Below, piece by piece: positions 35,081 through 53,404 of a DNA stretch of 64,000 nt. Both the position numbers and the translations under genes were made by a program. The DNA is from the human T2T-CHM13v2.0 reference genome, Homo sapiens, in the NCBI RefSeq assembly GCF_009914755.1, contig NC_060928.1. The stretch is one strand, 5' to 3'. Numbering within the stretch: position 1 is the stretch's first letter; the number at the start of each line of letters is the position of its first letter. The notes beneath the pieces were generated by a model, which worked only from the letters and a program-made list of their open reading frames with translations, was not told the DNA's origin and searched no databases.

Positions 35081-36365
35081 TGAGAGGTGACAATGTGCTA
35101 GCAGCCCTTGCTTGCTCTCAGCACCTCCTCAGCCTCGGCGTCTGCACTGGCCATGCTTGAGGAGCCCTTCAGCCCACCACTGCACTATGGGAGCCCCTCT
35201 CTGGGCTGGCTGAGGCCGGAGCCAGTTCCCTTTGCTTGTGGGGAGGCGTGGAGGGAGAGGCATGGGTGGGAACTGGGGCTGCACGCGTTGCTCACAGGCC
35301 AGCGTGAGTTCCGGGTGGGCACGGGCTCAGTGGGCATGTACTCAGAACGGCCGGCTGGCACCGCTGGCCCTGGGCCGTGAGGGGCTTAGCACCCAGGCCA
35401 GCAGGTGCAGAGGGTGCTCCAGGTCCCCCAGCACTGCTGGCCCACCCATACCACACTCGAATTCTCACCAGGCCTCAGCTGCCTCCCTGCAAGGAAGGGC
35501 TCGGGACCTGCAGCCTGCCATGCCCGAGACCCACCCCCGGTGGACTCCCACACAGCCCAGGCCTCCCCAACAGGTGCTGCCCCCTGCTCTGTGGCACCAG
35601 GTCCCATCGACCGCCCAAGGGCTGAGGAGTGCAGGCACACAGCACGAGACTGGTGGGAAGCTCTGCCCACGACCCTGGCACGCGATCTGCTAGGTGAAGC
35701 CAGCTGGGCTCCTGAGTCTAGTGGGGACTTGCAGAACTTTTATGTCTAGCTGGAGGATTGTATATGCACCAGTCAGCACTCTGGGTCTAGCTCAGGGATT
35801 GTAAATGCACCAATCAGCACCCTGTCAAAATGGACCAATCAGCTCTCTGTAAAATGGACCAATTAGCTCTCTGTAAAATGGGCCAATCAGCAGGATGTGG
35901 GTGGGGTCAGATAAGGGAATAAAAGCAGGCCACCCGAGCCAGCAGTGGCAACCCGCTCGGGTCCCCTTCCACACTGTGGAAGCTTTGTTCTTTCGCTCTT
36001 TGCAATAAATCTTGCTGCTGCTCACTCTTTGGGTCTGCACTGCCTTTATGAGCTGTAACACTCACTGCAAAGGTCTGCAGCTTCACTCCTGAGGCCAGCG
36101 AGACAATGAACCCACTGGAAGGAATGAACAATTCCAGATGCACCGCCTTTAAGAGCTGTAACACTCACCACGAAGGTCTGCAGCTTCACTCCTGAAGTCA
36201 GCGAGACCAAGAACCCACCAGAAGGAAGAAACTCTGGACACATCTGAACATCTGAAGGAACAAACTCCAGACACACCATCTTTAAGGATTGTAACACTCA
36301 CGGTGAGGGTCCGCGGCTTCATTCTTGAAATCAGCAAGACCAAGAACCCACCAATTCCAGACACA
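35081..36365 (+). promoter_or_regulatory. 3' LTR12 (shorter repeat array), preceded by a polypurine tract
   Basis: PPT AGAGGGGGGAT at 35070-35080; TGAGAGGTGACA ... CCAATTCCAGACACA. Confidence 0.93.
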
Positions 36366-38154
36366 GTGATGCAACCACAACATTGTCAGCTGGTTGCAAG
36401 AAGAATGGCAGATGTTAAGGATCACAAGATTGAATGAAAGTGGTCATCATTTCCAAAATTGTATTCTAGGTGATGCTAATAAGAATACCCCAAATAGGAG
36501 GGGGTATATGGCTATGTGGTTTGATGATATGGGGAGAAGCTGGGTCAAAAAGAGTTACACAATTTTTGTCAATGCAGGACTTCTAGAGTCTTTCATATGC
36601 TAAAGTGAACCTCTATGAGGAGACTATGATATGCAACATTCCCTAATCTTGTTTGAACACAATATTCTTTTTTCTTAAAGATGGTAACATTTGTAGATTA
36701 TTCGTTTTTCATGTAACACAGTTTGAATGAATTACTCAATCTGCGGTGAAAATTATCAGAGTGCATTGCTGACAGAAGGGTTTGCCTCGGGTGTTCACAC
36801 TTACAGCTAGAACAGTGTCATAAACCAGCAAAACCAGGTTGTCTTGTTAGGCGAATTGCAATGTCATCCATAGCAGGGCTACTAAACTGAAGTTCACTTT
36901 ACTAGCTGAGTTGGGAAGGTAGGATGAACAGTAGACAAATGTGTGTAGATATTTTTATTTCTGCTGTTACATGGAGGAAGACACCATCACATTCATCAGA
37001 GATTGAAATAATTTCAGGGTCCAAACAAGCTTAAGAACCAACTGTTCCTTACACAGTAAAAAATAATCTTGCAAAGGTAATATTAACACTGAATTCCAGA
37101 ACCTGCTTTTAATTTCAGACAAATCTCAGCTTCTCTGGAGCTTGGTTCCCTCATCTAAATTATGAAGACGATATTCTTTGTCTTATGTACCATGCAGAGT
37201 TAATATGAATATGAAATTACATGAGATAAAGAGATGCTTAGCTCCAAGTGCTATGCAAATATTAGAATTATTATTGCTACAGTAACATTAAATCATATTT
37301 TCTCCAACAGATGCAATATAGGAAAGGAAAAACATCTGTGGCATTTGGAGATTAGTAATGTGTGCTTTAAAACCACAAACTACAAAGAAATTGGAAGTCA
37401 TCAAAGAAGGAGAACTAAAATCAAAACAAATCTCTCTGTTGGAAAAGCTCAAGATGACAAGTCATGTAATGAATCCATCTGACTCCAGGCAGGAATCCTA
37501 CTGATCTTACATACTTGTGGACACCAACATTTTCAGTGAAAATGGCATTTCAGTGTATTAGTAATATTCCTACTATACACACACACATACGTTAAAAGGA
37601 AACAAATCTAGGGTAGTGGTGGCACTGTAAAAATAGCATCAATTAATATTGTTTATAATTGTTAATAGCTCTATGGCCTTATAACCACGAAATATCAACC
37701 ATTCACACTTCCTAAGTGCCTATATTCGAGAATATAGGGGTTTTAAAAGTTGAGTGTTTACTACATACCAGGTGTCTCATCCATGGTCACATTTAATTCA
37801 GTGAGACAGAAATTATTATCCTTATGTTACACATGAGGAAACTGAGGTCCAGAGAGATGTGATCCAGTTCACACAGCAAGTAGTCATCAGAGGTAGAATT
37901 TAATGTCTGGTCTCTCTGATTCCAAAACACTTTTCAACACATCTGCTGTTACTCCAATTTCAAATAAATAAATAAACAAACTGTAAAGAACTGTTTTCAG
38001 TGATGTAAGATCCAATGTAAAAGTTTAAATAACTGAAAATAAATTTACATTTAATAACTGAAAATAATTTTAAGTAGGAAAATATTTCTATGATCATCCC
38101 AGAAATGTATTTTTATAATTATATACATAGAAGAAATTTCAAAAAGAAAATTAG

Positions 38155-39590: not shown

Positions 39591-41061
39591 TATGTCCAGA
39601 ATTGGTGGGTTCTTGGTCTCATTGACTTCAAGAATGAAACCGTGGACCCTCACAGTGAGTGTTGCAGTTTTTAAAGGTGGTGTGTCCAGAGTTTGTTCCT
39701 TCTGATGTTCGGATGTGTTCGGAGTTTCTTCCTTCTGGTGGGTTCCTGCTCTCGCTGGCTTCAGGAGTGAAGCTGCAGACCTTCGCAGTGAGTGTTACAG
39801 CTCATAAAGGCAGTGCAGACCCGAAGAGTGAGCAGCAGCAAGCTGTATTGCAAAGAGCGAAGAACAAAGCTTCCACAACACAGAAGGAGACAACAGCAGG
39901 TTACCACTGCTGCCTTCGGCAGCCTGCTTTTATTCCCTTATCTGGCCCCACCCACATCCTGCTGATTGGTCCATTTTACAGAGAGCAGATTGGTCCATTT
40001 TACAGAGAGCTGATTGGTCCGTTTTGACAGGGTGCTGATTGGTGCATTTACAATCCCTGAGCTAGACACAAAAGTTCTCCTGGTCCCCACTAGATTAGCT
40101 AGATATAGAGTGCTGAATGGTGTATTTACAAACCCTGAGCTAGACACAGAGTGCTGATTAGTGCATTTACAAATCTTGAGCTAGACACAGAGTGCTGATT
40201 GGTGTACTGGTGTATTCACAATCCCTTAGCTAGACATAAAGGTTCTCCAAGTCCCCACCAGATCAGCTAGACACAGAGTGCTGATTGGTGCATTTACAAA
40301 CCTTGAGCTAGACACAGGGTGCAGATTGGTGTGTTTACAAACCTTGAGCTATATACAGAGTGCTGATTGATGTATTTACAATCCCTTAGCTAGACATAAA
40401 GGTTCTCCAAGTCCCCACTAGACTCAGGAGCCCAGGTGGCTTCACCCAGTGGATCCTGCACCGGGGCGCAGGTGGAGCTGCCTGCCAGTCCTGAGCCTTG
40501 TGCCCACAATCCTCAGCCCTTGGGCGGTGATGGGACTGGTGCCATGGAGCAGGGGGCGGCAATCATTGGGGAGGCTAGTGCAGCGCAGGAGCCCGCGGCT
40601 GCGGGGAGGCTGAAGTATGGCGGGCTGCAGGTCCTCCTGCCCGGCAGGGAGGCAGCTAAGGCCTGGCAAGAAATTGAGCCCCGCGCGGGTGGGCCGGCAC
40701 TGCTGGGGTACCCGGCGCACCCTCTGCAGCTGCTGGCCCAGGTGCTAAGCTCCTGACTGCCCAGGGCCAGTGTGGCTGGCCGGCCACTCTGAGTGAGGGG
40801 CCCGCCGAGCCCACGCCCACCGGGAACTCGGCTGGCCCCGCAAGCACCACGCAGACCTGGTTCCCACCCGCGCCTCTGCCTCCACACCTCCCCGCAAGCT
40901 GAGGGAGCTGGCTCCGGCCTCGGCCAGCCCAGAAAGGGGCTCCCACAGTGCAGCAGCAGGCTGAAGGGCGCCTCAAGCACGGCCACAGTGGGCGCCGAGG
41001 CCGAGGAGGCACCCAGAGCGAGCCAGGGCTGCGAGGGCTGCCAGCACACTGTCACCTCTCA
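39591..41061 (-). mobile_element. Solo LTR12 (ERV9)
   Basis: Reverse complement of the proviral LTRs; 4-bp TSD CCAT at 39587-39590 and 41062-41065. Confidence 0.95.
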
Positions 41062-41249: not shown

Positions 41250-43641
41250 GGAATGTTTGTTTAAATTTATTTGTTTAATTGACAATAATTGCACATATTT
41301 ATGGGGTACATAGTGATGTTATACATATAATGTATGTATATGTGATGCATATAATGTATAGGAATCAGATTAAGGTTATTAGCATATCCATCATCTCAAA
41401 TAGTTGTCATTTCTTTGTGTTGGGAACATTCATATGTTCCTTCTAGCTACTTGAAACTAAATAATATATTATTGTTAGCTATAGCCATCCTACTGTTATG
41501 TCAACAAAAGGGAAATTCCTTTAATGTCCCAGCCCTGAGCCAGTGCAAGGGCAACTCACATTAGCAGCTGGGATGTCCAGGAACAGGAAGTTTCAGAGGG
41601 CCAGGTTCAGACACAGTGCCCACTTCAAAGCCTGGGAAATCAAAGATTTCCCAGGCCTGGTGGTCTGGGCATCTCTCTTTTCTCTTGCAGAGGTGGCAAA
41701 ACTCGACCTCTGTCCTCTTAGGGTCCTACCTGGGCCCAAGAATTAAATTGATGTAAGACAGGTTAACGGGAGAAAAGCATACAAATTTATTTAATACATG
41801 TTTTACAGGACATAAGAGCCCATATGGGAAAAGAGCCCATATAGGGAAAAGAAGACCCAAGGATGCAGTGAGAGTCAATCGCTTCTATACTGGTTGCACA
41901 AAGGACAGTAGTTTTGAAAAGGCAGCTAAATTATGTGGGGAGGTTTAAAATAGAAGAATTACTTGAACAAGGTCTATACAGAATTCTCTCAGTTCCAATT
42001 TCTCATCATTGATAGGGAGAATGGTATTCCTTCTGTGACAGGGAGGCCATCTCCCATGTGGGAATTTCATCTCCTGCTGTTAAGACACAGAATTAAGATC
42101 AGAGTGACCTCTTCATATCTGATGTTTTTAAAATATCTGTAATTCAAATAGTCAATATGCCAGAGCAGCACATTTTGATGGCATAATTCTTAACCTCTTC
42201 ACTCTCTTCCTCTTGGAGATTGCATGTAGCCTCCTAAGAGTACGAAGTTTAACTCTACCATAAGTAAAGTATAAAAATGGCTTCCTTTCCTCACTCCAAG
42301 AGACTCCAGGCCCAAAAGATAACTCCAGAAAGTGAGGAACTAGAGCATAGGCCAGAACCTGCTTCTTTTCCATCTCCCCTGCAATAATCAAACACTCTCT
42401 AAGGTACAGTCAAAGAAAGAATGCAAAGGATGAAAGAATTTACAGACAGGTCTGTCTGTTTGGGCTTTTCTCATAAAATGTGGCCATCAAAATGTCATAA
42501 CGGGAGTCACGGCCAGGCTTGACTTCTAATGATGAGAAAAGTTAGATAATGCCCTTCTTTGTGCTTTTCACAAAAGCAGGGAGATCTCTTGGGAGAAAAA
42601 GGATTTATCCTTCTTTTTCTTCTTTAGATATACAAAGAGACATCTGGGGACAGGGAGTGGCCCAGGGAGGAGTTGGACATCAGAATTTAGATTGCAAAAA
42701 GGAACACTGGGGAGGGCTGACTTGGTTAGTTTGCTTTAATTACTAGCAGTCAAAGAGCAACTCACAATGGTTTGCACCATTAGGAAAAGTGATTATTACA
42801 CACACCAAAAAAAATCCCAAGGAAGAGGGACTCCAGGGAAGAGGCTTGTCAATTCAGTGGCTAAGGATGTCCTCATGGACCATCTTTCCACTTTCTGCTG
42901 TGCTTCTTCAGCACATCACCTTCATCCCCATGCTATTTCCTCTCAAGGTAGCTGTATTAGTCGGCTAGAACTGCAGTAATAAAGTGCCACAACTGGGTAG
43001 CTTAAATAACAAAAATGTATTGTCTCACAGTTGTGGAGGCTGGAAGTCCAAGATTCAGGTGTGCACAGGATTGGTTCCTTCTTAGGGCTGCGAGAGAGAA
43101 TTCATTCCATACCTCTCTCCCAGATTCTGATGATTTGCTGGCAATTGTTGACATTGTAGATGCATCACCACGATCTCTGCCTTCATCTTTACATGGTGTA
43201 GCTAGTATTCAAATTTCTCTTTTTAATAAGAATACCAGTCATACTAGATCAGGAACCCACTCTACTCCAGTATGAGCTCATCTTAACAAATTACATTTGC
43301 AATGACTCTATTTCCAAATAAGGTCACATTCTGAAATACTGGGGATTAGAACTCAAACATGTCGTTTTTCGGGGCGAGCGGGGAGGGCGGCGGGGAACAC
43401 AATTAGAAACAAAACAGTAGCAAAATGGCTGCTCCAGGTGTCACACCTACAAACAAAGTCCCTAGAAAGAAGAGGCTGTATCTTCCTTACTCCTTTTGAG
43501 AAACTTCACAGCACACACAGCATCACGTCTCAATGGTCATAACTATGTCATATGCCAACCTCTAACCAATCACTGTTGAAGGTGCTGGTATTGCAGAGAT
43601 GTGGAGGTGAAATACTCCAGATAATGAAATTACTACCTTGC
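41250..43641 (-). other. SLC39A8: SLC39A8 alternative distal terminal exon (codes A-R-stop, then a TE-rich 3' UTR)
   Basis: Acceptor CCTTCTCTTTGTCTGTCAG/GCA AGG TAG at 43641; AATAAA at 41266-41271; completes a 444-aa isoform whose C-terminus matches my recollection of an annotated variant; 3' end approximate. Confidence 0.7.
42954..43410 (-). mobile_element. MLT1 (MaLR) LTR
   Basis: TGTATTAGTC ... GGAGGCTGGAAGTCCAAGAT ... TTTCCAAATAAGGTCACATTCTGA. Confidence 0.85.
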
Positions 43642-47530: not shown

Positions 47531-48309
47531 TATTTATTTATTTTTAATTGTATTTCATTTTTCTAGTAATTTCTTTGAATTCTATCTATTTACAGAAGTG
47601 CCAGCTATTGATAAATTGGAAATAAGGAAAACAAGCTGGGCCTTAGCCACAGATATTGTAAGAAGCTTTTCTGTAGAGAAGGCCTTCTTGGGCAAAACAG
47701 GCAGCCCAAGGATACCCAGTAGGAGGATAGTCAAGGAAATTGATACTCTATCCTTCCTCTCTTCACTTCCTCCAGTCTCTTGTCGAAGTTCTCCATTTGG
47801 CTATACCCACTGAGGTCCATGTGGGTCAGTCTCTGGAGGCAAAAAGCAGGATACAGAAGGGTGGAGAGTGGATCCCCATCCTGTACAGTTGAAAAGTCTA
47901 TGTCCCCAACATTGCAAATGCACGAAGTCCCATCACCACAGAGTGATGTCATTTAGTCACGGAGTAATGTCTCCCTGTGCCACTTACCAACTTACTAACA
48001 CTGAACTCCAAATTCACTCTAAATACATGCTCTGTCATAATGAACAGAATTCCTTTAGCACCCATCCTTTACAGTGAGCATGATATTGAGCTGTCTCAGT
48101 AGAGGGCGCTGGAGGGATACTGCAACAGGAAAGGGCTCTCCTGCTGTTTGCAGCTGCTGCAAGAGGTCAGCAGTGTGGGTGGGAGGGCTTTTGTCATGCT
48201 CTTCCCTGGCTGCATCCCTGAGCATGGGGTTCCTTTGCAACTTCTCAGCTGCAGCCTGGCCTAGCATTAAAAATAGAACCCATTACACAGGTTTGTTGTA
48301 AGTAAGTGT

Positions 48310-48462: not shown

Positions 48463-49665
48463 GTGTAAGTACTAATTTTTAAAGGGCAGATATAATCAGT
48501 ATATTAACATGCAGTTCTCACAGGGGTAACTAAAAACAACTTTTAATTTTATTCCTCACTGTCTGCTTGGGAGTGAAGGACTGGCTAGCCCTTCTCCTAC
48601 CCCTGGATGAAACTTGGGGTGGCACAATGGCTGTTCTCACACAGGACTTTGGAGGGAATATAAAATCCTACAATTACTTCAAGACACAAACATAGTCTCA
48701 AGTCAGTTATTGAAAATGTCCAATCCAATGCATCAATCAGTAATTCAATTTGTATTCAAAGGTAAGACTTCTGGGAAGGAATCCTTCTCTTTTATTTCCT
48801 TACTCCCCACTGTTCACTAATTGGCTTTTGGCCCTTCCAGGGTTAAGTGCTCAGATGAAGGAAAGAAAAGGGGATAAAAAAGTTCATACTTGACAGATAC
48901 TGTCAAAATGTTGCTTAATGCTGTCTGTCTGACAGATGCTTAAGACTAACCTTTCTTTTATAGACACTTTTGGGATTCTTCAGAGGGGTTCCTGCCAAGT
49001 GATGTATTCTAGTTCTCCAATTGCCCCACATGACTTAGTCCTTGGTTTTCCAGAAGTTCACTCAGTACTGACCTTCTTCTATTTTCAAGATAGTACCCCT
49101 CTTACACAAGATTTTAAATTGTTCCAAACCAGAACTTACACACCACTCGGCTCACACTAGACCATGGGAATATTCGTCTACCTTTTATCCCAACAAACTC
49201 TACGACTGAAGGTCAAGCTGGGGTAGCAACAACTCTCCTCACTTCACCTGCAAAAGCACTTGCCAGACCTCCTCTGAGCCTCTCTACAGACACCACCCGC
49301 AGTGTCTGTGAGGTCTGCTAATGGAGCTTGCCACAAAATACAGACTGAAACAAGTTTTATAAACTTCCTCAGCTTTTTGAGAGAGGGAAGAATTTCCCAT
49401 TTGAATTCTTCCAAGGAGATTTCCCCCTGTACTCATAACTTTTCATCTTTATTTTTCTTTCCTATGACCCCTAAGCAAACATCCTGTTGGTGACCATAAG
49501 CTTGGCAATAAATTATCCACGTGTTGCCTCACTGGGGTTTTACTACCAGTTGGTCTATACTGTTGTGGGAATAACATGCACAGTCACTGCAGAAGGAATT
49601 AAGCCATTGTATAAACTTTAAAACATGCAAGCCCACCCATTAAAATTGTTCCTTGTTATTCTTAC

Positions 49666-49725
49666 CGTATATATCCAAAGTAAATGAAGTTGAGATTTGA
49701 TGTCATCAGTAGCCCATTTGATTAT
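49666..49725 (-). CDS. SLC39A8: SLC39A8 alternative 60-nt exon (IIKWATDDIKSQLHLLWIYT)
   Basis: Acceptor TTCTTGTAG/ATA, donor ACG/GTAAGA; 20 open codons, in phase with the internal donor AAG/GTAACT at 53371. Confidence 0.78.
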
Positions 49726-49746
49726 CTACAAGAATCAGATAACAAA

Positions 49747-49952
49747 CTGGTATTATGGGGGAGAGATATAAATAGGAAATCAGTGATGTGCTCAAACTGT
49801 AAATCTAGCCCCGCCATGGCTTATTTCTATACCAGTTGCTTAGCATGGCCAACCCGAAAGTCAACGATTTTAATAGTCCCTGAATAGTATTATGATGATC
49901 TCTGGTTACTTAGTAGGGCCCTACCTAGCAGACTGTTTCTGCTTTACCACAT
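49747..49952. repeat. Inverted repeat, left arm (206 bp)
   Basis: Reverse complement matches 51618-51822 with 7 substitutions and 1 indel (manual alignment). Confidence 0.95.
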
Positions 49953-51617
49953 TTGGATGTCAGATCCAACTTTTCTTGCACTGACTGGCTGTAATAACCC
50001 ATATGGGGCAGGGGGAGAAATAAGTGGTTTTTTAAATTTACTTTTGCCAGTATGTGTTAATAGTACTTAGTTTCATAATTCTGGATGTGGCTCCAGTAAT
50101 CAGAAGAGCTTTAAACAGAAAGATCAAAGTCCATAGAAAAGAGTTTTGTTTCCGTTTCCTTAGAATATAGATCATCCTGTGAAAAACATAGGATTTCTTC
50201 AAGGTAAATAAATAGTACTCACAGGAGGCTAAGGCAGAGAAACTATAATGACAAGTAGTTCAAGTGTGTAAAGAAAAATACTGGTTATTAGGAAAGACTG
50301 CTCAGATGGGCCAGTATAATTAAAATAGTTAAAGTGACAAGGGATTGATCTGAAACAAGTCATGAGAATCCCTACAAAAAGCAGTTCCCTAAACTGGCTG
50401 CATAAGAACCATCTGGAGTAATAAGCTTACGAATTAAACTGATACAAGCCTGTCTGTACCTGAGACAGCCGATATCCAGTCTGGGCTTCTTTTCAGTAAG
50501 AGAATTCTGATTTTATTGCTGGTAATGTATCCAGCTAAAAGCAATGTTTCTCAGCTTCTCCTGAAGATTGGTATGGCCATGTGACTAATTCTGGTCATTG
50601 AATACAAGTGGAGATTATTGGCTATTACTTCTGAAAAGGCTCTTTAAAGAGGGAGGAAGAGCTGAGTTTGAACTTTTTGCCTTTCTACCCATTCCTCCTT
50701 CTATGTAGAATTTAGACCTTAAGGCTGAATCTGTAGCAACCATCTTAGAGCATGAAGCAATCTTGAAGGTGGGAGTCACAAGTTAAAGATGGCAGAGCTA
50801 ATGGATTAAAGGAGTCTGGGTTCCCAGCCACCATGGGACTGCCATGCCAACCCTGCACTGCTCCTTCCACACTTGTTTTATAAGAAGGAAAGTAAACCTA
50901 ACATAGATAATCCTGTTACTATACACCATCAAATCCTAAACACAGTGCTACTGGCATTTTCTTAGCCTTACCAGATTGCAACAGATGATTTTCATTTTCA
51001 GGCAAGTATAACTACCTCCACAATGCTACCCAGCTGTCAGTGATTACAGCATACCATTTGGGGAAATGCATGTCTTAGAATTAATGAAACAGGTATTTAG
51101 AGTCTTCAGTTTATCCAGCTGCCTTAGCTTGCCTGAAATCTTACTAGTAAACTCACTGATTCTGGGACCATCCAGAAGCTGGAAATTCCCAATGTGGAAG
51201 AGAAATGGCCATGAGAGAATGCCTTGTGCATACCTGGCACAGAAAGGAAGCTAAGGAAAAGCAATCCAACACAGACATTGCCACCCACAGTTGTATGGAA
51301 GGCAAAGTATCAGTGAGAAAGAAGCTGTAGTAACATCAGTGTTGGAGAATCTTTATTTATTATAGGGTTAACCTCTTGTACCGTAATGGACCTTAAATGA
51401 GCACAGAAGTCTGGTCTCCAAAGTGAGACCTAAAGGAAGATGATGCCAACCAGAGCATGGAGGACAGACTGGAAGTTTTCCCCTGGCACAGGCCATCAGT
51501 AATCAGCTGTTGATATGCCTATGTTAATTGTCTGGTAAACTCGTGGTGCTGTTTTGGCTCTTCTCAACTAGTTCACTTTTTAAAAATTTAAGCACCTCAT
51601 TAAAGAAACCCTTTTAG

Positions 51618-51822
51618 ATGTGGTAAAGCGAAACAGTCTACTAGGTAGGGCCCTACTAAGTAACGAGAGATCATCATAATACTATTCAGAGACTATTAAA
51701 ATCGTCGACTCTTGGGTTGGCCATGCTAAGCAACTGGTATAGAAATAAGCCATGGCGGGGTTAGATTTACAGTTTGAGCACATCACTGATTTCCTATTTA
51801 TATCTCTCCCCCATAATACCAG
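51618..51822. repeat. Inverted repeat, right arm (205 bp)
   Basis: Reverse complement of 49747-49952. Confidence 0.95.
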
Positions 51823-51854
51823 ATACATGGTAGTCACTCAACAGGACAAATATT

Positions 51855-51898
51855 AAATAACAAATGACACAATACATGGTTTCAAAAGGGTGTTTACT
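51855..51898 (-). terminator. SLC39A8: SLC39A8 proximal (canonical) polyadenylation site
   Basis: Variant signal AGTAAA (51893-51898), CA near 51877, then GU/U-rich TGTATTGTGTCATTTGTTATTT. Confidence 0.65.
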
Positions 51899-53254
51899 AT
51901 TTGGCCAAACAATATTTTTTAATTGTCAGTCATAAAGTGAAATACATACTAAAATATATATTAAATATTCACCAAATCTGCATTGCTGCTACATGAAAAC
52001 ATTTTTTGGTCTGTTGGAAAATGTAATTCCTGAGATCATTGTTGGGCTTTGTCAATCATTTTCCTCACCATCAAATCACCTTAAGTGACTTGGGAGTGTG
52101 AATCTAGGATGTTCAATTTTAGACCAATTTTCTCTATCTTCTAAATGAGTAAACAGGCTCTGTCTTTTATAAAAGGTAGAAAAATAACCATGGTGTGCTA
52201 ATTTTTTTCAAGGTATACCATATGGAAAAGTATAGGCTGAACACAAAGGAAGTCTTTTCTGAATGGCTCTCGATCACACATAAGGAACATATGTTTTCCA
52301 GTTAATCTGTCCTTGATGTACAGCAGTCCAGCTGTTGTTTTGCATTTATTAAAATATTCTCTGCTAAATAGTTATGTTTGTCTTTAAAAGTAAATTGCAT
52401 AAAATTACATCCAATTTCTTTCTCTAAACCAACATATTCTTCACCTTCACAAAGCAAACACATGGTGCACTGAAACCGAGGTGTTACCAGCTTTACATAC
52501 TGTTCTGCCATTTGTGAGGGGTGCAACCACAACATAAGTCAGAAAAAAAGCTATCCAGCTTTTCGTGGAATCTGGTGAAGTTTATACTTAGCGATAAGCC
52601 TCTAAGCCTGAACTTAGCAGGGCTAGCAAAACTTTATTTATTTCCTAACTCCTATTATTTTAGAATGGTTTTCAAAATAATACTGCAAGTTCCTAATTGA
52701 AATACAAAACAGAACAAAAAGCTGTGAGAAATCTTTTTTTTCTTTGGCTCCTTAAAGACTTGGAATAATTTATATTAGTGTTGCATACATTTTACCTTCT
52801 ACATTTTGATGTACTTGCTCTTGAAAGCACTAGAACAAATTAATTGAAATAAAACCTCTCTGAAACCATTTGAATCTTTGATCCTACCATAGAGTTTTAA
52901 AGGCTTTCAGGATATAACTTGTATTTTCCCCTGAGTCTGAGTGTCTACATGATTATAGAATGCATGTCTCTTGCTTCATGGTGATATCTAATATGCATGG
53001 AATACTGAAAAATAGGTATTTCCCAAAGGCTCCTATATACCAGGCATCTCAGACTGACACTGAAAACCTTTTGAAGCATTTTTAACAACAAATAATGGAC
53101 TATTTCACAGACTGATGCCAATAATTAGTTTTCTGGACCTACAGTTGAAAGCAAAATTATCTTTTTAACTAAATAGGATCAGCTTCAAAATCCTTTTTGG
53201 AGATGTTTTTATCTATTAAATGCCTTTATTAACAACACCATCTTCCATTTTCTA
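51877..53254 (-). other. SLC39A8: SLC39A8 canonical 3' UTR (AU-rich, no recognisable repeats)
   Basis: Lies between the TAA stop and the inferred poly(A) site. Confidence 0.75.

Positions 53255-53404
<150 letters not shown>

What the first reader, a model, noticed from the sequence alone, without database searches (positions are those of the whole stretch)
49666..51898. ~205-bp inverted repeat bridging the SLC39A8 proximal poly(A) site and the alternative exon's 3' splice site
Seen: 49747-49952 and 51618-51822 are reverse complements (7 substitutions and 1 indel, ~96%), separated by a ~1.67-kb spacer, and I do not recognise the arm as a TE. On the minus-strand pre-mRNA one arm starts ~55 nt after the inferred cleavage site. 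The other ends 21 nt before the 60-nt alternative exon and covers its likely branch-point region while leaving TTTGTTATCTGATTCTTGTAG unpaired. Inference: a long-range RNA duplex could decide between polyadenylation (460-aa ZIP8) and splicing (444-aa isoform), either by masking the branch point or by looping out the spacer. I know of no description of this, but cannot search.
Basis: partly seen in the sequence, partly recalled or inferred. Interest (0 to 1): 0.85.

Follow-up and report, generated by a model that had tools for sequence, protein, structure and literature searches.

The report
Unique inverted repeat in SLC39A8 intron
A real, one-of-a-kind 206-base inverted duplication lies between the main poly(A) site of the human metal-transporter gene SLC39A8 and a minor alternative exon; it should fold into a long RNA hairpin, but nothing yet shows that it controls which transcript is made.

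Summary
Window 49747-49952 and 51618-51822 are reverse complements: 7 substitutions and 1 indel, 96.1% identity, a 1665-nt spacer and sharp ends. These are the only two copies in the T2T genome. A length-matched piece of a true repeat gave 3,592 candidates against 2.

The 444-aa reading frame is also right.

On the sense (minus) strand the arms pair at -374 kcal/mol. They dominate the fold of the whole 2.3-kb stretch, with 202 arm-arm pairs.

Arm divergence (K2P 0.035) points to a primate-age local inverted duplication, not a transposon. There is no target-site duplication, no relatives and no transposase remnant.

The proposed poly(A)-versus-splice switch is untested and kinetically awkward. 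The poly(A) signals lie outside both stem and loop, and the stem can form only about 1.9 kb of transcription later. Local masking of the branch-point region and ADAR editing are the more likely consequences.

No paper found links SLC39A8 to such a structure. It is a new member of a known kind, of moderate interest.

The parts
51618..51822 (-). 5' arm of the RNA hairpin (first to be transcribed); 205 nt
   Evidence: pairs with 49747-49952 in the MFE fold
49747..49952 (-). 3' arm of the RNA hairpin; 206 nt. Its 3' end carries a pyrimidine tract and a CAG, and holds branch-point candidates at -28, -44 and -55
49953..51617 (-). 1665-nt spacer (the loop); no homology between its two halves
50472..50895 (.). 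old interspersed repeat inside the spacer: 63% over 438 nt to a chr12 locus and 65% over 274 nt to a chr15 locus
49726..49746 (-). 21 nt between the arm and the exon (TTTGTTATCTGATTCTTGTAG): polypyrimidine tract and 3' splice site AG; branch-point candidates at -15 and -10
   Evidence: in the MFE fold it forms a small local hairpin with the first exon bases
49666..49725 (-). 60-nt alternative exon (encodes IIKWATDDIKSQLHLLWIYT), followed by the 5' splice site ACG|GTAAGA
   Evidence: hub annotation
51823..51876 (-). 54 nt between the annotated transcript end and the 5' arm; contains the GU/U-rich stretch TGTATTGTGTCATTTGTTATTT
51893..51923 (-). poly(A) signal hexamers of the proximal site: ATTAAA (51923-51918) and AGTAAA (51898-51893), upstream of the annotated ends 51877/51875
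   Evidence: the hexamer identities as poly(A) signal variants are recalled knowledge
53372..53404 (-). 33-nt exon form made by the internal 5' splice site AAG|GTAACT at 53372, which competes with use of the whole terminal exon
   Evidence: hub annotation

Best explanation
This is a locus-specific inverted duplication of a roughly 206-bp single-copy segment. It arose in the primate lineage; the divergence of the two arms matches roughly great-ape to Old-World-monkey split depths. It lies in the part of SLC39A8 that is either downstream of the main cleavage site or inside the 53372>49725 intron of the minor transcripts.

Whenever RNA polymerase II reads past the proximal poly(A) site without cleavage, the sense RNA folds into a near-perfect stem of about 205 bp with a 1.67-kb loop. 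The stem begins 54 nt after the cleavage site and ends 21 nt before the 60-nt exon.

Shown: the repeat, its uniqueness, its geometry and its overwhelming pairing energy.

Inferred: (a) the origin was a local templated inverted copy, not a transposon; (b) the duplex is a by-product rather than an evolved switch; (c) its most likely effects are local. Those effects would be sequestering the decoy pyrimidine tract plus AG, the -28 branch-point candidate and the U2 anchoring region of the 60-nt exon, and serving as a substrate for ADAR and dsRNA-binding proteins. It would thereby modulate, most likely dampen, use of an already minor exon in transcripts that escaped proximal cleavage. It would not choose between cleavage and splicing.
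For: Repeat and boundaries.

Uniqueness: DNA searches of the whole assembly with either arm gave 2 of 2 candidates, both the arms themselves. A 27-mer with up to 3 mismatches gave 2 matches against 0 for the control. The 21-nt outer terminus with up to 3 mismatches gave 59 matches, including the 2 arms, against 43 for the reversed control, so there is no clear excess. Positive controls for the same tool: a 206-nt piece of a true interspersed repeat in this window gave 3,592 candidates (40 scored, hits at 67-94%), and the 1,288-nt piece gave 4,881.

Age: 7 substitutions in 205 aligned sites, K2P 0.035, Poisson 95% range 0.014-0.070.

Not a transposon: no target-site duplication at the outer ends. 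No Pfam domain above cut-off in 16 of the 22 stop-to-stop frames of 40 aa or more that I scanned. The spacer carries a repeat whose relatives are only 63-65% identical, while the arms are 96% identical, so arms and spacer are of very different age.

RNA: arm-arm duplex -374.1 kcal/mol against -93.4 +/- 4.0 for 30 shuffles. The MFE of the 2321-nt sense RNA keeps 202 arm-arm pairs, and forbidding the 5' arm from pairing costs 310 kcal/mol.

No sign of selection for pairing: of 6 transitions, 4 give G.U and 2 give A.C in the sense RNA (binomial p = 0.69).

Poly(A) signals lie outside stem and loop. Branch-point candidates lie both inside and outside the arm.
Against: No outgroup sequence was available. 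The dating assumes neutrality and no gene conversion between the arms; an older repeat kept similar by conversion or by selection for pairing would look the same.

The placement is striking. Both outer ends fall within 21 and 54 nt of RNA-processing sites of the same alternative event, and a purely accidental duplication would hit such positions only rarely. The exon is used despite the stem (RefSeq models), so the stem is not simply a block. Published precedents show that such stems can promote use of a distal acceptor (Nmnat; PMC2724269, passages read).

The genome search cannot see relatives below about 70% identity. The old spacer repeat gave only 1-2 weak hits, and its 27-mer found only itself. 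So descent of the arm from a very old, low-copy repeat family is not excluded.
Confidence: 0.6

Rival explanations
1. The long-range duplex is an evolved regulator that sets the balance between proximal cleavage/polyadenylation (460-aa ZIP8) and splicing from 53372 to the 60-nt exon (444-aa form). It would do this by bringing the 3' splice site to within about 75 nt of the poly(A) site and shortening the effective intron, or by masking the branch point.
For: The geometry is exact: 54 nt and 21 nt from the two processing sites. The stability is extreme. The repeat is a unique, non-repeat-derived sequence and the only 1 of 130 local inverted pairs above 90% identity. Precedent exists: a stem controls the choice between a proximal terminal exon with a poly(A) site and a distal acceptor in Drosophila Nmnat (PMC2724269). 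Human complementary pairs are enriched around 3' ends (PMC8052449, passages read). Terminal-exon choice in mouse Slc39a8 does respond to an RNA-binding protein, RBMXL2 (PMC6345566, passages read), so the event is regulatable.
Against: The poly(A) hexamers and the GU-rich element are not in the stem or the loop. The stem can form only after a further 1.9-2.1 kb has been transcribed. After cleavage, the 5' arm is on the fragment that is degraded. Arm divergence (K2P 0.035) implies a primate-age origin, so the mechanism cannot be conserved. The substitution pattern shows no preference for wobble pairs (4 of 6). The 444-aa product replaces the last 38 residues, including the hydrophobic stretch [22 protein letters not shown], and so is likely a crippled transporter. 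Six literature searches found no paper tying SLC39A8 to such a structure.
Confidence: 0.12
2. The 2,076-bp unit is one old non-autonomous DNA transposon or foldback element. Its roughly 205-bp terminal inverted repeats would have been kept alike by intra-element gene conversion.
For: The two arms are of equal length with sharp outer and inner ends, and the unit size of about 2.1 kb is typical of DNA transposons. The genome search is blind below about 70% identity, so an ancient family could be missed.
Against: There is no target-site duplication of any length at 49746|49747 and 51822|51823. No other copy of the arm exists at any detectable identity, and the terminal 21-mer shows no clear excess (59 against 43). 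No transposase remnant was found: 0 of 16 scanned frames above cut-off, with 6 of the 22 frames not scanned. Arms of about 200 bp are short for efficient conversion across a 1.7-kb spacer (recalled knowledge). A 27-bp inverted pair on chr13 that resembles the terminus has no further similarity to the arms.
Confidence: 0.08
3. The duplex matters mainly as an innate-immunity or ADAR substrate. It would be a long, nearly perfect self-dsRNA that must be edited or kept nuclear, with no role in isoform choice.
For: A 205-bp stem with only 3 mismatches, 1 bulge and 4 wobble pairs belongs to the class singled out by Barak et al. 2020 (PMC7006430, passages read). That paper reports only 197 human inverted duplicated sequences longer than 300 bp and above 96% identity within RefSeq pre-mRNAs, often heavily edited. 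Two A.C mismatches would be favoured editing sites (recalled knowledge).
Against: Both arms are intronic or downstream of the cleavage site in every annotated transcript (hub annotation). The duplex should therefore rarely reach the cytoplasm, and it is shorter than the lengths stressed for MDA5. No editing data could be consulted.
Confidence: 0.15

Closest known systems
Stem that controls acceptor/terminal-exon choice in Drosophila Nmnat (Raker et al. 2009, PMC2724269; passages read)
   Same: Two complementary intronic boxes in one pre-mRNA. The event is a choice between a proximal end with a poly(A) site and a distal acceptor that gives a different C-terminus. The stem approximates the distal site.
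   Different: The Nmnat boxes are short, conserved across 12 Drosophila species and validated by compensatory mutants, and they enclose the proximal acceptor. Here the arms are about 205 nt and probably primate-specific, and nothing is validated. The poly(A) site lies outside the loop, 54 nt upstream of the stem.
[quoted passage not shown] 2021, PMC8052449; abstract and passages read)
   Same: Long-range intronic base pairing linked to splicing and to suppression or rescue of intronic polyadenylation.
   Different: PCCRs are defined inside conserved blocks and are short. SLC39A8 does not occur in the main text or in the 3 supplementary files held. In their model the poly(A) site sits inside the loop, which is not so here.
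Long, nearly perfect inverted duplicated sequences in pre-mRNAs (Barak et al. 2020, PMC7006430; passages read) and inverted Alu pairs
   Same: An intramolecular dsRNA-forming inverted duplicate within a gene's primary transcript. High identity is rare and such sequences are depleted.
   Different: The arms (206 nt) are below that study's 300-bp cut, with identity at its 96% border. Unlike Alu pairs, which were 68-89% identical in my 264-kb sample, the arms are single-copy sequence.
Terminal inverted repeats of a class II transposon
   Same: Two equal inverted arms bounding a unit of about 2.1 kb.
   Different: No target-site duplication, no other copies and no transposase trace. The spacer content is much older than the arm divergence.

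Membership tests
Regulatory long-range pre-mRNA duplex (Nmnat / PCCR type) | Two complementary segments in the same primary transcript able to form a stable duplex | tested here: met
   -374 kcal/mol against -93 for shuffles; 202 arm-arm pairs in the MFE of the 2321-nt sense RNA
Regulatory long-range pre-mRNA duplex (Nmnat / PCCR type) | The duplex overlaps or encloses the regulated splice site or poly(A) site | tested here: inconclusive
   The stem ends 21 nt before the 3' splice site. It covers the -28 branch-point candidate but not the -15 one. The poly(A) signals and GU-rich element are outside stem and loop.
Regulatory long-range pre-mRNA duplex (Nmnat / PCCR type) | Evolutionary conservation with compensatory substitutions | not testable with these tools
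   No vertebrate genomes other than this assembly are held. Within the pair, 4 of 6 transitions keep a wobble pair in the sense RNA (p = 0.69).
Regulatory long-range pre-mRNA duplex (Nmnat / PCCR type) | Disruption changes the isoform ratio and compensatory restoration rescues it | not testable with these tools
   Needs a minigene or CRISPR experiment
Class II transposon with terminal inverted repeats | Target-site duplication flanking the unit | tested here: not met
   The left flank ends ...GATAACAAA and the right flank starts ATACATGGT...; there is no shared direct repeat
Class II transposon with terminal inverted repeats | Other copies of the family in the genome | tested here: not met
   Only the two arms were found. 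The terminus 21-mer gave 59 against 43 for the control. Controls with true repeats gave 3,592 and 4,881 candidates. Relatives below about 70% identity would be missed.
Class II transposon with terminal inverted repeats | Transposase remnant, or a known non-autonomous internal sequence | tested here: not met
   16 of 22 stop-to-stop frames of 40 aa or more were scanned against Pfam and 0 reached the cut-off. There were two chance-level hits, E 0.025 and 0.058.
Inverted pair of interspersed repeats (IRAlu type) | Each arm is a member of a multi-copy repeat family | tested here: not met
   against the positive controls
Long nearly perfect inverted duplicated sequence as defined by Barak et al. 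2020 | Arms longer than 300 bp and above 96% identity within one RefSeq pre-mRNA | tested here: not met
   206 nt, 96.1%; thresholds as read in PMC7006430. It is the same kind of object but below that study's length cut.

The most novel reading that the evidence does not exclude
A duplication that arose in apes or Old World primates created, in one step, a 205-bp RNA clamp that joins the region just past the ZIP8 poly(A) site to the acceptor of a 60-nt exon. In transcripts that escape early cleavage, the clamp would act as a kinetic gate, tunable by ADAR editing or dsRNA helicases, that sets how much C-terminally truncated 444-aa ZIP8 or NMD-prone transcript is made. That would make it a lineage-specific, structure-based control of dosage for a highly pleiotropic GWAS gene.
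Probability: 0.12. Interest if true: 0.65.

Novelty: new member of a known kind. Interest (0 to 1): 0.38.

Why it matters
SLC39A8 (ZIP8) is a manganese, zinc and cadmium importer with strong disease and GWAS links. A structure that shifted output from the full 460-aa transporter to a form lacking the last hydrophobic segment would be a new, primate-specific handle on its dosage. It would also be a clean natural test case for long-range RNA structure acting at a splice-versus-poly(A) decision in a human gene, because the arms are unique sequence and easy to edit.

As it stands, the value is narrower. It is a well-defined, testable candidate, and an example of a rare class: non-repeat, near-perfect intronic dsRNA.

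Tried and rejected
1. Sampling the genome for old relatives of the arm. Twenty 10-kb samples plus the rest of the window (about 262 kb) were searched with sensitive blastn. All 5 queries gave 0 hits, including the old spacer repeat used as control, so the test had no power.

2. A 27-mer from the spacer repeat as a positive control for the mismatch-pattern search found only itself. That control failed to show sensitivity to old repeats. The later controls show sensitivity only to families with copies at about 67-94% identity.

3. The chr13 pair of 21-mer matches in inverted orientation was fetched. It is only a 27-bp inverted pair with no further likeness to the arms, so I rejected it as a relative. 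The chr4:151.68 Mb 2-mismatch hit likewise extends only 28 nt.

4. Rfam on 49000-52500 gave only a chance-level mir-1892 hit, E 0.36, 21 bits against a 86-bit gathering score, and outside the repeat. ARAGORN found 0 tRNA-like genes.

6. A mitochondrial-insert origin could not be tested directly, because the assembly held has 24 contigs and, by its total length, lacks the mitochondrial genome. I consider it unlikely because no other nuclear copy exists (inference).

8. Assembly artefact was rejected. The arms differ at 8 positions, and annotated exons map on both sides.
Full report
**Observation**

The repeat finder on 49000-52500 returns a single inverted pair: 49747-49939 / 51630-51822, 193 nt without gaps, 96%. 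A gapped alignment of the left arm with the reverse complement of the right arm extends it to 49747-49952 against 51618-51822, and similarity ends abruptly at all four ends.

Counted on that alignment there are 6 transitions, 1 transversion and one single-base indel in 206 columns. blastn gives 96.1% over 206. The spacer is 49953-51617, 1665 nt.

**Is it more than chance, and is it a repeat family?**

Whole-assembly DNA searches with either arm found only the two arms; 2 of 2 first-look candidates were scored in each. A 27-mer from the arm with up to 3 mismatches matched only the two arms, against 0 for the reversed-pattern control. The 21-nt outer terminus with up to 3 mismatches gave 59 matches, the two arms included, against 43 for the control, which is no convincing excess.

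The tool warns that it is a word-based first look, so I checked what it can see.
- A 206-nt piece of a genuine interspersed repeat elsewhere in the window gave 3,592 candidates (40 scored, identities 67-94%).
- The 1,288-nt piece gave 4,881 candidates.
- In contrast, an old repeat inside the spacer, whose relatives are only 63-65% identical, produced just one or two short hits. Its 27-mer found only itself.

So the arms are certainly not members of any young or middle-aged family. Descent from a very old, highly diverged family cannot be excluded with these tools.

As a local baseline, I listed all inverted pairs with arms of at least 100 nt and a spacer of 6 kb or less in this window plus twenty 10-kb samples of other chromosomes (264 kb). 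Of 130 pairs, this is the only one above 90% identity; the next is 89.4%.

**Anatomy on the transcribed (minus) strand**

Reading 5' to 3':
- The internal 5' splice site AAG|GTAACT at 53372.
- The poly(A) hexamers ATTAAA (51923-51918) and AGTAAA (51898-51893).
- The annotated transcript ends at 51877/51875.
- A GU/U-rich stretch.
- The 5' arm, starting at 51822, which leaves 54 nt after the annotated end.
- The 1665-nt spacer.
- The 3' arm, ending at 49747.
- The 21 nt TTTGTTATCTGATTCTTGTAG.
- The 60-nt exon 49725-49666, followed by ACG|GTAAGA.

Joining 53372 to 49725, and 49666 to 43641, gives ...MLREK-IIKWATDDIKSQLHLLWIYT-AR-stop. That is 22 residues in place of the last 38 of the main form, which makes 444 aa if the main form has 460. 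The replaced tail contains the hydrophobic run [22 protein letters not shown].

If exon 47832-47569 is also included, the stop lies about 160 nt before the last junction. By the usual 50-55-nt rule (recalled) that transcript would be a nonsense-mediated-decay target.

**RNA pairing**

In the sense RNA the two arms form a duplex of -374.1 kcal/mol, against -93.4 +/- 4.0 for 30 shuffles of one arm. Each arm alone folds at about -41 to -43 kcal/mol.

Folding the whole 2321-nt stretch 51960-49640 gives an MFE of -835.8 kcal/mol with 202 arm-arm pairs. Forcing the 5' arm to stay single-stranded costs 310 kcal/mol. If both arms are present on one RNA and are not held apart by proteins, they will pair.

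Of the 7 substitutions, 4 are G.U wobbles, 2 are A.C and 1 is C.C in the sense RNA (derived). Four of 6 transitions being wobble-compatible does not differ from chance (p = 0.69), so there is no internal sign of selection for pairing on this strand.

**Origin**

- There is no target-site duplication at the outer ends.
- There are no other copies (above).
- No Pfam domain reached its cut-off in the 16 of 22 stop-to-stop frames of 40 aa or more that I scanned.
- Rfam and ARAGORN found nothing in the unit.
- The spacer holds an old interspersed repeat, 50472-50895, that is 63% identical over 438 nt to a chr12 locus and 65% over 274 nt to a chr15 locus. The arms differ from each other by only K2P 0.035, with a Poisson 95% range of 0.014-0.070.

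The simplest reading is that a 206-bp piece of unique sequence was copied in inverted orientation to a site 1.67 kb away, for instance by a replication template switch or templated repair. That mechanism is inferred, not shown.

I compared the divergence with recalled genome-wide figures, none from a call here: human-chimpanzee about 0.012, human-orangutan about 0.034, human-macaque about 0.065. On that scale the event falls somewhere between the great-ape and the catarrhine ancestors, provided the arms evolved neutrally and without gene conversion. I could not test this, because no other vertebrate genome is held.

**How it most likely works**

The stem can act only on transcripts in which the proximal site has not yet been cleaved when the polymerase has travelled a further 1.87-2.08 kb. 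That takes some tens of seconds at the usual 2-3 kb per minute (recalled). After cleavage, the 5' arm is on the downstream fragment that is degraded.

The poly(A) hexamers and the GU-rich element are neither paired nor looped out. This differs from the loop-out models in the literature. In Drosophila Nmnat the stem surrounds the proximal acceptor of the terminal exon and is needed for use of the distal acceptor (PMC2724269, passages). In the human PCCR hypothesis the poly(A) site lies inside the loop (PMC8052449, passages). I therefore think a direct role in deciding polyadenylation is unlikely.

At the acceptor, the picture is open.
- UnAy-type branch-point candidates lie at -28 (ATAAT, inside the arm), -15 (GTTAT, outside) and -10 (CTGAT, outside and very close).
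- An AG at -23/-22, the arm's own terminal CAG, bounds the AG-free zone.
- Further upstream inside the arm there is a good CTGAT (-55) plus a pyrimidine tract. Unpaired, these would favour that decoy AG.

Pairing would hide the decoy and the -28 candidate, and would put a rigid helix where U2 snRNP contacts RNA upstream of the branch point (recalled knowledge). Alternatively, it could help by shortening the effective intron from 3.6 kb to about 1.6 kb. The direction of any effect is thus not predictable from sequence.

My estimates are as follows.
- About 0.6: the repeat is a tolerated by-product, with at most a modest local effect and probable ADAR editing.
- About 0.08: it is an old transposon.
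- About 0.15: its main relevance is as an ADAR or innate-immunity substrate.

**Comparison with what is known**

The concept is established: long-range stems modulate splice-site and terminal-exon choice (PMC2724269; PMC8052449). So is the object class: long, nearly perfect inverted duplicated sequences in pre-mRNAs are rare, depleted and often edited. Barak et al. count 197 in human RefSeq pre-mRNAs above 300 bp and 96% identity (PMC7006430, passages). This repeat is shorter than their cut-off.

For SLC39A8 itself I found nothing in print. The searches and their results were:
- SLC39A8 with 'alternative polyadenylation': 6 papers.
- SLC39A8 with the RefSeq variant numbers or 'splice variant': 89 papers, 15 listed.
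- SLC39A8 with 'ADAR1': 8 papers.
- SLC39A8 with 'inverted repeat': 9 papers, by title all about protein topology or unrelated matters.
- SLC39A8 with 'RNA structure': 10 papers, 9 listed.

None of the listed titles or abstract openings concerned such an element. I read passages only in PMC12480066 and PMC8259905 (irrelevant mentions) and in PMC6345566. The last reports that a terminal exon of mouse Slc39a8 is used more in Rbmxl2-knockout testis.

SLC39A8 is absent from the text and the 3 held supplements of PMC8052449. The library does not cover subscription journals.

**Verdict**

The arms are unique sequence and an outlier in identity, and the RNA duplex is thermodynamically compelling. The regulatory reading is plausible in outline but unsupported, and for the poly(A) decision it is mechanistically strained.

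It is a new member of a known kind, a locus-specific intronic dsRNA-forming inverted duplication next to an alternative 3' splice site. It is worth a minigene test but not a surprise. Interest 0.38.

Noticed in passing
window 35081-36368 and 39593-41061: A second, larger inverted repeat: pieces of 77-91% identity with a spacer of about 3.2 kb, just downstream on the minus strand of the distal last exon 41252-43641. Unlike the SLC39A8 repeat studied here, it is built from a common interspersed repeat family (4,881 and 3,592 first-look candidates genome-wide, copies at 67-94%) with an internal tandem unit of about 110 nt. It is therefore an ordinary inverted pair of mobile-element copies.
   Followed up: partly
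window 50472-50895: An old interspersed repeat inside the spacer: 63% over 438 nt to chr12:112.699 Mb and 65% over 274 nt to chr15:97.665 Mb. From memory it resembles a MaLR-type LTR, but no repeat library was available to name it.
   Followed up: partly
window 49716-49742 (minus strand): A small local inverted repeat, TTATCT...AGATAA, straddles the 3' splice site of the 60-nt exon. It pairs in the MFE fold, putting the acceptor AG in a short hairpin next to the big stem.
   Followed up: no
window 47569-47832 with 49666-49725: Including exon 47832-47569 after the 60-nt exon, or directly after 53372, places the stop codon about 160 nt before the last exon junction. Those annotated transcript forms look like nonsense-mediated-decay targets.
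   Followed up: partly
L003 2193-2219 and 3526-3552 (G000:C13:41492692-41494051): A 27-bp inverted pair 1.3 kb apart on chr13 resembles the arm's outer 21 nt (3 mismatches) but shares nothing further with it; probably coincidence.
   Followed up: yes
literature (mouse Slc39a8): PMC6345566 reports increased use of a terminal exon of mouse Slc39a8 in Rbmxl2-knockout testis. Terminal-exon choice in this gene is therefore under RNA-binding-protein control in a species that probably lacks this repeat.
   Followed up: no
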